64,000 nt of DNA from assembly GCF_018977255.1 (NCBI RefSeq), contig NW_024704752.1:14632001-14696000 (forward strand), in the 5' to 3' direction. The notes under the pieces are model-generated. The model saw only the letters and a program-made list of their open reading frames with translations, was not told where the DNA came from and did no database searches. A program made the position numbers and the translations under genes. Positions 4,291 through 23,382 of this stretch are shown here, piece after piece (within the stretch, counting starts at the first letter, position 1; the number at the start of each line of letters is the position of its first letter). The stretch is from Callorhinchus milii. Taxonomy: Eukaryota.

Positions 4291-4846
4291 CTAAAATAAA
4301 TTACAGAAGTAGTTTAAACTTTTTATTATATTAAACGTGCTCCACTGACAATAAAACTATAAAAATAATTGCCAAACAAGTGATTTAGTGGATGTCAATT
4401 ATGAATACAATTGTTAATTGAAATACAAAATAGTTTACAACTAAAGAATAAACAGTTGTAAAGGATAAACTGCACCATATTAACAATGTAAAGCATGTTA
4501 TGTAAAGGATTATGGTTTATAGTACAGGATCGTATTGCGTGGGTAGAAGCCCAATCAGTGATTCAAATGTAGTATACAATACAAAATTACATTTGTATCG
4601 CCCCTTTCAACAACAACAACAAGATTCCATTTTTTTTTCCATTTATATGTCGGGAGTACATCTCAAGGCACTGGACAGTCAGGGATTTGGACCTGAGCTG
4701 TGGGGTTGGGATCAGGCTAGAAGTATCCACGGTGTGATGATTTTTAAACAGCAGATTGATAATTTTTTATCAGTTATTCTGAATAATGAAAGCAGATTTA
4801 AAAATTTCAATTCTATTGCAAAACAGTTGATTTTCCAGTCTCTCAC

Positions 4847-5123
4847 CTTTGTCCTCTTTCTGTTTACACTTCTATTTTCACCAGATCGGTCGTTCTTTTA
4901 CTGACCGGGTTCTCTGCTGTGCACCTGTACTCGTGTTGACAATTTTCTCTCACACTGTCTATGATTAGTACTTTCCCATCATATGTGTCATTGACAATTC
5001 CAGACAGGTGGCGTTTTTCCCAATAAAATATGACGTTAGTTCCATTGGAGACAGAGCAACTCAGAGTGATATTCAGTGATGAACAGTTCACAGCAATCAC
5101 CACCACAGGCTGGGAAACTAGTT
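4847..5123 (-). CDS. Gene A IgC2 exon, with a 2-nt deletion and premature TAA at 4864-4866
   Basis: [39 protein letters not shown]. The exon is 277 nt versus 279 nt in gene B; plus strand reads cacttctatttt here versus cacttctctatttt in B. Confidence 0.85.
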
Positions 5124-5580
5124 CTGAAACACACAAAGGTTAGTTGCCCAATGGATACCCAACTGTGTGTGTATTTATTCTGCTAAAATAATATTTACGT
5201 TTAATCAAAGATCTAATTTTTTAAAGGCTGAGGCAGACCATGAACAATGACTTGGGTACTCTGTTCAAAATTGTTCTGTGAATCTTTTGATTTTGTTCTA
5301 ACGATTGCATGAAATAAACTCGGTTCATCCTAATTAAGAATTGACCCATTTTTCCAACCCTTCATCCTGTATCTACAATACATGGATTCAGCACATTTTT
5401 AGTGGCTGTTGTCAGAAAGGAACATTATTGAGGACCAGAGATTATTTAATATCTCACAATAAATCCACATGGGTTAATAATTGCTTGCTTTAAATAGACT
5501 TTCATTTTATTCCAAAATGCAAAATTCTGATGGACTTCTCAAATAATAATGTATAGAACTTACCAATGAGGGGTACTTAC

Positions 5581-5943
5581 CAAACACACCCAATTCAAAA
5601 TCTGTTTTATTGCTTATTTGTATCTTTGTATCAAGGTAGTCAAATAGCATTTCATAAACTCCAGAGTCGTTGACCTGCACTTTGTCCAACTGCACAAAGC
5701 CGTTCTGATTCAATTTCACTCTTTCTTTATAGAGTGGGTGTATAGAATGTGTTGTCTCTGATGTATTCTTTGTCCATGATGCAATTTTAGTATCGAATGG
5801 AGTTTTGTAAGAAAATGTAATTTCACTCTGAGCTTCAAGTTGGCCATTTACAGGGAACCGGACTTGATCTCCAACAGCTACATTAGTGACTGTTCCGAAT
5901 GAGGCCAATGTCACTGCTCCAGTCACCGTAATCAGATGGAAAA
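5581..5943 (-). CDS. Gene A IgV exon (cysteine-free V-set, CD2/SLAM type)
   Basis: 363 nt, TTCTTAG| acceptor and G|GTAAGT donor, phase 1/1. Motifs [34 protein letters not shown]; no Cys. Confidence 0.9.
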
Positions 5944-6028
5944 CTAAGAAACAAAAATGAATAAAAAATGAATGAGTATCAATGGTACAGTCTCTATCAA
6001 ATAATGTTCATATGATGCTATATGTTAC

Positions 6029-6063
6029 CTGGAATGAAAATCCAAGTTTTGATACCAGTCGAG
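6029..6063 (-). pseudogene. Truncated copy of the 3' end of gene B's leader exon inside gene A intron 1
   Basis: Identical to 23298-23332 ([11 protein letters not shown] plus donor). Similarity stops abruptly at 6063, and upstream there is an in-frame TAA and no ATG. Confidence 0.75.
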
Positions 6064-6217
6064 CAAATTATACGTGCCTCTGTTTACCTAGTAGTAAGTA
6101 GGAACTTGTTTGTTGGTGTATTGCTTTTCTGTGGCTAATAATTCCTTAAAAAAAATTGGTCACATCAATCCATGACTGTTTGTGGAACACTGGTGTGTCC
6201 AATTGGCTGCTACATTA

Positions 6218-6556
6218 TTAATAATAATAATAATAATCCTTGCATTTTATGTAGCGCTTTTCACATCTTCTAGACGTTTCAAAGTGCTTCACAGAATATT
6301 CTGTAAAGCGAATTGACTGTATATTTGTGGGCGAAACACAGCAGCCAATTGCACACAGCAGTGTCCCACAAACAGAAAATGACCAATTTATTATTGTTTT
6401 GTTTTTTGGAGGGATTATTATTAGGTGTATTTCGCACACAAATATATTTGTCAATTATGTCAATTAACTTTACAGTATATTCTGTACAGTTCTTTGAGAC
6501 GTCTTGAAGATCCTGATAAGGCACTATATTAAAATGCAAGGATTATTATTATTATT
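6218..6556. mobile_element. Two partial SINE copies in opposite orientation (6218-6430 minus; 6465-6556 plus)
   Basis: 3' halves of the same SINE consensus. Confidence 0.8.
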
Positions 6557-6559
6557 ACT

Positions 6560-6945
6560 TGCCTCTGAGACAGAAGGTTCAAGCCCCACTTCAGGACTTT
6601 GAAGTTACAGTCTAAGCTGCACTCCAGTGCAGTCCTGGGGGTTGTGCTGCATTGTCAGAGGTGCTGTGCTTCAGATTAGATGAAGAACCAAAGTCTGATT
6701 TGCCTGTTCGGGTCAAAGTGAAAAATCCCAAGGCACTATTTGGAAAGAGAAAGGCGTTTTTCCCCAGTGTACTGTCCAAGAATCTCCCACATGAAATTAG
6801 ACAGTAAATTATATTTGTGAGACATTGCTCTGTGTTTGCCTAAAAAATACACCGTCACTGCACTTTCCAGTAAATCTGTGAAGTGCTTTGGGACACCTCG
6901 ATTAAGTGATGAGGTACGATATAAATACAAGAGTTATTATTACTA
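6560..6945 (+). mobile_element. Old Deu-domain SINE (SacSINE1/AmnSINE1-like)
   Basis: ggttcaagccccact..actccagtgcagt..gctgcattgtcagaggtgctg..ttcagat..gcctgttc..aaaaatcccaaggcactattt pattern. Confidence 0.7.
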
Positions 6946-20868: not shown

Positions 20869-20954
20869 TTAACCAATTCTTGTAGAATATGTGGGTTCAA
20901 TAAATGGATATTCCTTGGTAGCATTTCCTTCCTTGTTCTTTGGTATTGTTTCAT
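20869..20954 (-). CDS. Gene B cytoplasmic exon [28 protein letters not shown] (full protein ~306 aa)
   Basis: TCTTTCAG| acceptor, phase 1; homologous to the gene D tail exon. Confidence 0.75.
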
Positions 20955-21354
20955 CTGAAAGACACAGAATTGACATAATTTATATTTAAGACAAGTTTTG
21001 GACAAACTAGGGTAAATTAGCCTTTTGTATAGAATCATTCATAGGTCTTAAAGGGCAAAAATGTTGTATGGGTTGGGATACACTTCTTACAATGTTAAAT
21101 ACATCCGTTTGTTAAGCCATTAAAATGTTCGTGGTTACTATTTCAATAACAATTCAAATGTTTGAAAAATATTAAATGTGTTCTCAGATTATCTCATTGC
21201 TTTCTATGTATCTTTTTAATCTAATCTAATCTTACATTATTTGCCAAAATTCTTAAATTTTCTGTCACAGAAGATATTCTGACAATCTACCAATGATGTG
21301 GATTGATATTGATATTGTTGTCAATCCACTCACTTGTCTAGTGGTTGAACTTAC

Positions 21355-21462
21355 TGGCAGTTTTTCTTCTTTTACAGCAGAAATACATTGTTGAAATCCA
21401 AATTATTATTAATAATAAAAACAATGCACCAATGGCAAGAGCAATCCATCGTAACAGCTCAC
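21355..21462 (-). CDS. Gene B transmembrane exon [36 protein letters not shown]
   Basis: 108 nt, TATTTTAG| acceptor and A|GTAAGT donor; hydrophobic helix followed by a basic stop-transfer sequence. Confidence 0.85.
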
Positions 21463-21940
21463 CTAAAATAAATTGCAAAAGTAGCTTAAACTTTTTTATA
21501 TAACAGATTTACATCACTGACAGTGAAACTGACATGAAAGCCAAATAACTAGTGATGAATAGATTCAATGGAAATCACTACTCAATACAGATGTTGATTG
21601 AAAATTGAAATACAAAAAAGTGCAGAAATGGGTGAGCAATTGTAGAGATGGATAAAAATGCTTATTAATATACAATTCGATTTCTTACTAATACCTAGAT
21701 CGTTTCTCCATGTAGTTTCAACATTGAATGCACATTATATGATCATACATTCCAATGCAGCCTAACATTTGACAGACACAAACCCAATCAATGATCGAAA
21801 TGTAGAAGTATCTGCAGTGTGATGATTTTTACGCAGCAAATTGATAATTGACATCTGTTATTCTGAGCAGTGAAATGAGACGCAAAAGCAGATCGTCATT
21901 TCACTTCTATTCCAAGAGTGTTGATTTTCCATTCTCTCAC

Positions 21941-22219
21941 CTTTGTCCTCGTTCCGTTTACACTTCTCTATTTTCATCAGATCGCTCGTTCTTTTACTGA
22001 CCGGGTTCTCTGCTATGCACCTGTACTCGTGTTGACAATTTTCTCTCACACTGTCTATTACTAGTACATTCCCATCATACGTGTCATTGACAATTCCGGA
22101 TAGGTGGCGTTTTTCCCAATAAAATGTGACGTTAGTTCCATTGGAGACAGAGCATCTCAGAGTGATATTCAGAGGCGAACAGTTCACAGCAATCACCACC
22201 ACAGGCTGGGAAACTAGTT
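21941..22219 (-). CDS. Gene B IgC2 exon
   Basis: 279 nt and open. [52 protein letters not shown]; donor AG|GTGAGA. Confidence 0.9.
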
Positions 22220-22848
22220 CTGAAACGCACAAAGGTTAGGTGAATGCGCACAACATCACAAGAAGTTTGGATGAATAGTACAGATATCAGGTTAAGCAGG
22301 AACAGACTTGGTTACCACCCATCCTTCTCTTCTTCTCCCACCCTCCAACTAAACTTTAGACTCCATTACCACAAAAGCACTTTTGGATGATTTGGATTTC
22401 GTTTTACCAACAAAGTTCTTAATATTCATGATAATAAAAATCTGTATGGGTGTTTATTTTTCTGCTACAATAATATTTTATGTTTAAGCAAAGCATCTAG
22501 TTTTTTTAAGGGCTTAAAGCAGACCAAAGAACAATGACTTGGGTACTTTGTTCAAAATTGTTCCATGAATCGTTTGATTTTGTTCTAACGATTTCATGAA
22601 ATAAACGTGTTTCATCCTAATTAAAAATTTACACATTTGCAACCTTTCATTCTGTATCTTCAATACATGGATTTATGTACATTTTCAATGCTTGCTGTCA
22701 GAATTGTTGGGAACTAGACATTTCTGAATAACTCATAATAAATCTACATAAATTAAAATTGCAAAATTATATAGATTTTTATTTTCTTCAAAATACTAAT
22801 GGAATTGTCAAATAATAATACATAGGACTTACCAATGAGGGTACTTAC

Positions 22849-23211
22849 CAAACACACCCAATTCAAAATCTGTTTTATTGCTTGTTTGTATCTTTGTATC
22901 AAGGTAGTCAAATAGAGTTTCATAAACTCCAGAGTCGTTGACCTGCACTTTGTCCAACTGCACAAAGCCGTTCTGATTCAATTTCACTCTTTCTTTATAG
23001 AGTGGGTGTATAGAATGTGTTGTCTCTGATATATCCTTTGTCCATGATGCAATTTTAGTATCGAATGGAGTTTTGTAAGAAAATGTAATTTCACTCTGAG
23101 CTTCAAGCTGGCCATTTACAGGGAACCAGACTTGGTCTCCAACAGCTACATTAGTGACTGTTCCGAATGAAGCCAATGTCACTGCTCCAGTCACCGTAAT
23201 CAGATGGAAAA
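22849..23211 (-). CDS. Gene B IgV exon (cysteine-free V-set)
   Basis: 363 nt, AG/GT bounded, phase 1/1; nearly identical to the gene A V exon. Confidence 0.9.
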
Positions 23212-23297
23212 CTAAGAAACAAAAATGAATAAAAAATGAATGAATATCAATGGTTACAGTCTCTATCAAATAGTGTTCATATGATGCTATACGTTAC

Positions 23298-23382
23298 CTG
23301 GAATGAAAATCCAAGTTTTGATACCAGTCGAGGAACACCTGCTCTTCAGACTACTTGAATTCTTCTTATCGAATGTTTTCAT
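23298..23382 (-). CDS. Gene B leader exon [28 protein letters not shown]
   Basis: ATG at 23382, 85 nt, phase-1 donor CCAG|GTAACG; in frame with the V exon. Confidence 0.75.

What the first reader, a model, noticed from the sequence alone, without database searches (positions are those of the whole stretch)
4830..23382. Genes A and B share nearly identical ectodomains but have different leaders and TM exons, with a sharp conversion breakpoint inside the leader exon
Seen: the V exons differ at only about 9 of 363 nt by my count (5 residues: R/W, NT/DI, M/T, I/T; A has an NTS glycosylation sequon that B lacks). Near-identity runs through the upstream intron and stops abruptly at 6063/23332, in the middle of B's leader exon. 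A is left with a dead 35-nt piece of B's leader and has its own leader at 6979-7042. The V-C2 intron is less similar, and the TM exons and their flanks are much more diverged. Inference: gene conversion from B into A homogenised the ligand-binding part, as described for paired receptors such as SIGLEC5/14.
Basis: partly seen in the sequence, partly recalled or inferred. Interest (0 to 1): 0.72.

Follow-up and report, generated by a model that had tools for sequence, protein, structure and literature searches.

The report
Conversion-matched immune receptor gene pair
Two neighbouring immune-type receptor genes of an elephant shark have almost identical outer binding domains but old, different membrane anchors, most likely because one gene has repeatedly been copied onto the other; they might act as an on/off receptor pair, which is untested.

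Summary
Observation confirmed. A and B are minus-strand V-C2-TM genes of a CD2/SLAM-like chondrichthyan family. Divergence at neutral sites falls in three steps: 2.5% (intron 1, V exon), 16% (intron 2, C2), 27% or more beyond. The TM exons differ as much as either does from paralogue D. Repeated gene conversion is the best reading.

Corrections: (1) the 6063 edge is where B-type leader meets a headless SINE, so it is a homology boundary and does not date the event; (2) the window's A has a 2-nt gap and stop in C2 that two other runs and an older model lack; (3) B transcripts carry A letters at 6 of 6 variant sites, hinting at two-way exchange.

The paired-receptor reading is half met: A has an intramembrane Arg and no tyrosine-motif tail, but B has no canonical ITIM or ITSM, and use of A's leader and TM exon is not shown.

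Exon-limited identity also occurs among family members on contig C30. The scan noted similar conversion pairs elsewhere in this genome (CD28HL1, TLR2, PAR1; unchecked), not this locus. Verdict: new example of a known process.

The parts
6979..7042 (-). Gene A own (distal) leader exon, 21 codons plus 1 nt
   Evidence: ATG, open frame, GTAAAG donor; 75% identical to B leader over 44 nt; splicing to V not seen in the rows shown
6064..6941 (.). Repeat-filled part of A intron 1: older tRNA-type SINE lacking its head (about 6064-6211 and 6430-6557), nested inverted SINE (6212-6428), further repeat pieces (about 6640-6941)
6029..6063 (-). B-type leader 3' piece in A, with donor site; upstream edge of the shared block
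   Evidence: 0 of 35 differences; junction read across by model XP_007887918.1
5944..6028 (-). B-type intron 1 in A
   Evidence: 3 of 85 differences plus 1 gap; A-type version seen in X5 contig 5916-6058 with 0 other letters
5581..5943 (-). Gene A V-set exon, no cysteine
   Evidence: Pfam V-set E=8e-5, below curated cut-off; 9 of 363 differences from B
5558..6063 (.). Youngest shared block (about 500 nt)
   Evidence: neutral-site mismatch 0.025, n=122, changepoint after 5558, p=0.001
4800..5557 (.). Older shared block: intron 2, C2 exon and about 50 nt of intron 3
   Evidence: neutral-site mismatch 0.161, n=447, changepoint near 4800, p=0.005
4847..5123 (-). Gene A C2 exon; 2-nt gap at 4870 in this window
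   Evidence: Pfam ig over cut-off; gap absent in X2 and X5 contigs and in P0168
4180..4290 (-). Gene A transmembrane exon with an Arg inside the hydrophobic stretch
   Evidence: AG and GTGAGT sites; Arg inside the best 19-, 21- and 23-residue windows
2391..2446 (-). Candidate last exon of A (18 residues, no ITIM, ITSM or ITAM); not homologous to B's tail exon
   Evidence: strongest of 4 acceptors found; used by P0168; no similarity to B or D tail exons against shuffles
11467..12423 (-). Relic paralogue between B and A (broken V piece and C2)
23298..23382 (-). Gene B leader exon
   Evidence: matches N-terminus of P0001/P0002; spliced in X5, X10, X11
22849..23211 (-). Gene B V-set exon
21941..22219 (-). 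Gene B C2 exon
21355..21462 (-). Gene B transmembrane exon; its Arg sits at the outer edge, with 23 uncharged residues after it
20869..20954 (-). Gene B tail exon with two tyrosines, including the IEPTY motif shared with D and shark relatives

Best explanation
A and B are old neighbouring paralogues whose ectodomain exons have likely been re-homogenised by at least two rounds of non-allelic gene conversion, while their membrane anchors and tails stayed apart. Shown: three divergence steps at neutral sites, and TM exons as distant as from paralogue D. Inferred: an older tract covered intron 2 to early intron 3, and a younger one covered the V exon and intron 1. At some time a B-derived tract ended non-homologously inside a SINE in A's intron 1, leaving A with two leader 3' ends; later tracts simply ran up to that edge. 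Predicted function: A uses its distal leader and shows the same binding surface as B on a short-tailed anchor whose Arg would recruit an ITAM adaptor, while B signals through its own conserved tyrosine motif. I put conversion at about 0.8 and the opposed-pair function at about 0.3.
For: Neutral sites: 0.025 (n=122), 0.161 (n=447), 0.275 (n=371), permutation p=0.001 and 0.005. Intron 1 against intron 2: Fisher p=9e-4. V exon A-B 0.025 against A-D 0.38, but TM exon A-B 0.43, A-D 0.39, B-D 0.40. B, C and D all have a leader about 87-90 nt above V; in A that place holds a truncated B copy joined to a SINE lacking its head, and the rest of B's leader occurs nowhere else in the window or 11 fetched loci. 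The junction is read across by an older NCBI model. In B-spliced contigs of X10 and X11, 6 of 6 variant sites in V and C2 carry A's letter; cDNA-type P0001 has A's residue at two of them. A's TM exon and distal leader are intact where a rough neutral simulation gives 0.03 and 0.14 survival. A zeta-family adaptor TM exon is in the genome.
Against: No second species was available, so paralogue clustering across species is untested. No contig in the rows shown bridges 6063 in A's form. B has no canonical ITIM or ITSM, and A's TM lacks the NxxR motif (PMC2413239). No full-length A protein with distal leader or TM exon is in the collection; the two database models of A lack both. The aligner gives 0.29 mismatch on shuffled intron 3, so the third step is near its floor and only a lower bound. 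Logan contigs drop rare variants, so mixed letters can be mosaics of two alleles. The same exon-island pattern occurs among C30 family members with no sign of opposed anchors.
Confidence: 0.72

Rival explanations
1. Conversion happened, but A is silent, secreted or decaying, and the homogenisation is a neutral by-product of close tandem paralogues, common in this family.
For: The database models of A lack a real leader; one skips the TM exon. B, C and D each have UniRef V9K entries, recalled as cDNA-derived, and A has none in the lists read. A relic paralogue sits next door. C30 members share exon-limited 93-96% identity. SIGLEC16 null alleles also take part in conversion (PMC5701461 abstract).
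Against: A's distal leader, splice sites and hydrophobic TM exon are intact despite 30-40% divergence. The C2 frameshift is absent from two other runs. A shark relative (Heptranchias P0020) also has an Arg in its TM and no tail tyrosine.
Confidence: 0.4
2. A is a hybrid made by unequal crossing-over or partial duplication of B's 5' part; a later deletion removed the front of the B-type leader and the SINE head, so 6063 is a deletion edge, not a conversion edge.
For: Two leader ends in A need one non-homologous step, and a deletion explains the headless SINE equally well.
Against: One event predicts one divergence level from 6063 to 4800; two levels are seen (0.025 and 0.161), so later exchange is needed anyway. 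No other B-upstream sequence remains in A.
Confidence: 0.17
3. Simple duplication, with purifying selection keeping the Ig exons alike.
For: Exons are more alike than the long introns; V against C2 synonymous rates do not differ significantly (Fisher p=0.32).
Against: The 86-nt intron (3 of 85; 2 of 57 without splice ends) and four-fold V sites (1 of 52) share the plateau; intron 2 does not. In D and C the same intron is about 50% different from B, so it is not constrained.
Confidence: 0.05
4. The shared block or its edge is an assembly artefact.
For: The window has small indel errors here (4870, 5210, 5228; D's TM exon). No contig shown bridges 6063 in A's form.
Against: Both intron-1 versions occur in other runs: B-type letters in X2 record 7, A-type in X5 record 24; A-specific intron-2 contigs reach the V exon edge in X2, X3 and X5. 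An older model that lacks this window's frameshift has the same junction.
Confidence: 0.06

Closest known systems
SIGLEC11/SIGLEC16 and SIGLEC5/SIGLEC14 concerted evolution (PMC5701461: abstract and section 5 read; PMC6288428: passages)
   Same: Neighbouring paralogues; near-identity centred on the V-set exon and including non-coding sequence; stepped identity (A/A' and B/B' regions); different anchors and tails.
   Different: Different Ig family. The young tract is about 0.5 kb, not about 2 kb, and excludes the promoter. No ITIM in B. No cross-species or ligand data here.
FcR-gamma-coupled activating receptors with a TM Arg: LILRA, PIR-A, Xenopus XFL TM1 (PMC3533184 and PMC2413239: passages)
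   Same: A has an Arg in the outer half of its TM and a short tail without a signalling motif.
   Different: A lacks the NxxR motif described for these TMs; adaptor binding is untested.
CD2/SLAM family (PMC4718992: passages); database names 'SLAM family member 7-like' and 'hepatocyte cell adhesion molecule-like' for B, C, D
   Same: V plus C2 ectodomain, single TM; PDB sequence hits to CEACAM1 and CD2; cysteine-free V domain (a CD2/CEACAM trait, recalled).
   Different: No ITSM. The cluster lies between an SH3-SH2 gene (NCK-like, name recalled) and otospiralin. Close relatives named are cartilaginous fish and paddlefish. Orthology to any mammalian SLAM is not shown.

Membership tests
Paired receptors (definition in PMC3533184) | Highly similar extracellular domains | tested here: met
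   V 5 of 120 codons and C2 8 of 83 codons differ in residue
Paired receptors (definition in PMC3533184) | Genes in one small cluster | tested here: met
   V exons 17.3 kb apart, same strand
Paired receptors (definition in PMC3533184) | Inhibitory member carries an ITIM | tested here: not met
   No [SIVL]xYxx[IVL] or TxYxx[VI] in B's last 75 residues; a non-canonical IEPTY-type motif recurs in B, D and 7 of 13 other tails scanned
Paired receptors (definition in PMC3533184) | Activating member has a short tail and Arg/Lys in the TM | tested here: met
   Arg inside A's best 19-, 21- and 23-residue windows; no homologue of B's tail exon downstream of A. Sequence only: inclusion of the exon in mRNA not shown
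Paired receptors (definition in PMC3533184) | Association with an ITAM adaptor and opposed signalling | not testable with these tools
   A zeta-family TM exon exists in the genome; binding needs a cell assay
Paired receptors (definition in PMC3533184) | Expression on overlapping immune cells | not testable with these tools
   Only contigs without tissue labels were served
FcR-gamma-coupled TM1-type receptors (PMC2413239) | NxxR motif at the TM N-terminus | tested here: not met
   A's Asn and Arg are six residues apart
Concerted evolution by gene conversion (criteria of PMC5701461) | Identity plateau that includes non-coding sequence, flanked by lower identity | tested here: met
Concerted evolution by gene conversion (criteria of PMC5701461) | Paralogues group by species in the tract and by gene outside it | not testable with these tools
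   No orthologous DNA of a related species held; protein trees place A with B and resolve no shark orthologue
SLAM family (PMC4718992) | Distal IgV plus proximal IgC2 plus TM | tested here: met
SLAM family (PMC4718992) | ITSM in the tail (present in six of nine members) | tested here: not met
SLAM family (PMC4718992) | Position in the SLAM gene cluster | tested here: inconclusive
   Only the two flanking genes were typed; wider synteny not examined

The most novel reading that the evidence does not exclude
A and B are a true activating/inhibitory pair in a CD2/SLAM-like family of a holocephalan, kept matched by recurrent two-way conversion: A recruits a zeta-family ITAM adaptor through its TM Arg, and B dampens through a non-canonical IEPTY tyrosine motif conserved across cartilaginous fishes. 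This would extend SIGLEC-style paired-receptor evolution to the earliest-branching jawed vertebrates and to a family where my searches found no such pair described.
Probability: 0.25. Interest if true: 0.65.

Novelty: new member of a known kind. Interest (0 to 1): 0.42.

Why it matters
It is a clean, layered example of gene conversion acting on a receptor's binding domain in a slowly evolving cartilaginous fish, with a molecular scar (second leader end joined to a headless SINE). If A proves to be an expressed, adaptor-coupled twin of B, it gives an ancient test case for the idea that activating decoys are kept matched to their partners by conversion, and points to an unstudied tyrosine motif. 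If A is silent, it is an ordinary case. It also shows that the window's frameshifts in A and D are likely assembly errors that hide two membrane genes.

Tried and rejected
Sequencing-run search: no RNA holder listed on record. In RNA-like runs X10 and X11, which splice B, A's unique parts had no or almost no cover; a part without cover is not evidence. The V-C2 and leader-V joints laid on A in X5 fit B equally and were not counted for A. Mixed A/B letters in contigs of X1, X2, X3 and X5 were not used as alleles, because both genes feed those contigs. Structure prediction of A's TM exon with two copies of the zeta-family TM: no answer, score 0.10 against a mark of 0.34. Dropped: the TM codon counts (poor alignment) and the C2 stalk counts (wrong frame); dropped: the joined translations (wrong exon limits, corrected). 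Promoter homology between A, B, C and D: none above shuffles. Protein trees of 17 of 20 chosen sequences (3 could not be split) did not resolve orthologues. Scyliorhinus cluster: 7 proteins share one TM, so no second homogenised pair with different anchors was seen. A possible imperfect microhomology between the leader piece and the SINE head region at the junction came from a lenient gapped alignment and is only a hint. Paper searches found nothing on this locus: 0 papers; 0; listings only, none on these genes by title or abstract start. Subscription papers and genome-paper supplements were not seen and may list these genes.
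Full report
Setting. The window is G000:C11:14632001-14696000. Database names of the matching proteins give the organism as Callorhinchus milii. The minus strand holds a cluster of V-C2-TM genes, D (38.4 kb), C (31.6 kb), B (23.4 kb), a relic (11.5-12.4 kb) and A (7.0-4.2 kb), between an SH3-SH2 gene and otospiralin. At least seven more family V exons lie on contig C30. 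B's five exons match P0002 and are partly confirmed by spliced contigs in runs X10 and X11.

Observation. The DNA search of the genome found only these two copies of the block. A-specific contigs of X2 (4775-4885) and X5 (4725-4888) carry the two letters, X3 and X6 do not cover the place with an A-specific contig, and model XP_007887918.1 reads through. The gap is therefore likely an assembly error or a private allele. D's TM exon has a similar break that P0005, P0178 and P0181 lack.

Is it more than selection? I scored 940 near-neutral sites (introns without splice ends, four-fold sites). Binary segmentation gives mismatch 0.025 from 6020 to 5558 (n=122), 0.161 from 5557 to 4800 (n=447) and 0.275 from 4799 to 4311 (n=371), with permutation p=0.001 and 0.005; three further splits were not significant. 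The third value is near the aligner's floor of 0.29 for shuffled sequence, although BLAST finds real homology there (77% over 159 nt, 68% over 154 nt). With paralogues: V exon A-B 0.025, A-D 0.38; C2 A-B 0.058, A-D 0.34; TM exon A-B 0.43, A-D 0.39, B-D 0.40. One duplication with exon selection cannot give a near-identical short intron beside a 16% intron, so I infer at least two conversion tracts of different age.

The edge. B, C and D have their leader about 87-90 nt above V. In A that place holds only the last 35 nt of B's leader, joined to the inside of an old tRNA-type SINE whose head is missing. A second, complete leader lies 950 nt further up, 75% identical to B's over 44 nt, and the intron between is nearly all repeats. 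The rest of B's leader occurs nowhere else in the window or the 11 loci fetched. The simplest reading is a B-derived tract that was homologous at its V end and non-homologous at the SINE end. A later deletion of a longer B-type insert fits as well. Either way the edge is where homology ends, so any later tract stops there and its sharpness dates nothing. The junction is read across by the older model, but none of the 32 contig pieces shown bridges it in A's form; 2067 were not shown.

Direction and timing. B as donor fits the leader piece. Yet in the two B-spliced contigs all 6 variant sites in V and C2 carry A's letter; three are seen in both runs and three in one. Private changes in the reference B would give the same sign, so by a rough even-odds count this is p about 0.02, and contigs may mix two alleles. 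It does show that A-B divergence in V is close to allelic variation in B.

Function. By the definition in PMC3533184 (passages), paired receptors need similar ectodomains, a cluster, an ITIM-bearing member and a short-tailed member with a TM Arg or Lys. The first two are met. A's Arg lies inside its best hydrophobic window at 19, 21 and 23 residues, whereas B has 23 uncharged residues after its edge Arg. No homologue of B's tail exon follows A; neither read-through nor the candidate exon at 2391-2446 gives an ITIM. Among 21 relatives with a predicted TM, one (Heptranchias P0020) has an internal Arg and no tail tyrosine, and one has a Lys near the inner end. Against: B has no ITIM or ITSM, only an IEPTY motif shared with D and several fish relatives; A lacks the NxxR motif of FcR-gamma-coupled TMs (PMC2413239, passages); no database protein joins A's distal leader or TM exon to its ectodomain. 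A rough neutral simulation gives 0.03 for survival of a TM exon and 0.14 for the leader, which suggests that A was under selection for much of its history. So A and B look like a paired receptor in layout, but are not filed as one.

Context and novelty. Conversion of paired receptor ectodomains is established for SIGLEC11/16 and SIGLEC5/14 (PMC5701461 abstract and section 5; PMC6288428 passages). In this genome the C30 family members L004/L006 against L005/L007 also match only over V and C2 exons with short flanks (92-96% over 420-500 nt; four-fold differences 1 of 57-60 in C2), so the pattern is a family habit. Earlier scan notes report conversion pairs for CD28HL1, TLR2 and PAR1 elsewhere in this genome (unchecked), and none near this place. 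Paper searches found nothing on this locus; PMC4718992 (passages) supplied the SLAM features. Verdict: real, well supported conversion mosaic; new member of a known kind; interest 0.42, rising to about 0.65 if A is an expressed activating twin.

Noticed in passing
window 35990-36130 (gene D TM exon): Frame break in the window; current-contig models end early, while P0005, P0178, P0179, P0180 and P0181 read a full TM and tail. Likely another assembly indel.
   Followed up: partly
window 37917-38282 (gene D V exon): P0005 differs from the window's D at 7 residues of the V domain and not in C2, so D may be strongly polymorphic in its binding domain.
   Followed up: no
L004, L005, L006, L007 (G000:C30, 2.16-2.40 Mb): Family members whose V and C2 exons are 92-96% identical while their introns do not align, apart from repeats; possible exon-limited conversion across about 230 kb.
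   Followed up: partly
window 20869-20954 and 35490-35583: IEPTY-type tyrosine motif near the C-terminus of B and D, also in shark, ray and paddlefish relatives; not an ITIM, ITSM or ITAM.
   Followed up: partly
window 21355-21462: Database isoform P0003 of B skips the TM exon and would be soluble.
   Followed up: no
window 6943-6978: Only 36 nt of non-repeat intron follow A's distal leader, ending in an acceptor-like stretch similar to the V acceptor; perhaps the stub of the ancestral short intron.
   Followed up: partly
window 28217-28643 and 34266-34673: An 85% identical duplicated stretch downstream of genes C and D.
   Followed up: no
window 23528-23701 and 33165-33335; also L003, L005, L007, L009, L010: A 70-74% identical element lies upstream of B and C and near C30 family members; may be a shared regulatory element or an old repeat.
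   Followed up: no
window 48028-48384: Otospiralin exon whose frame continues into a lysine/proline/glutamate-rich repeat extension.
   Followed up: no
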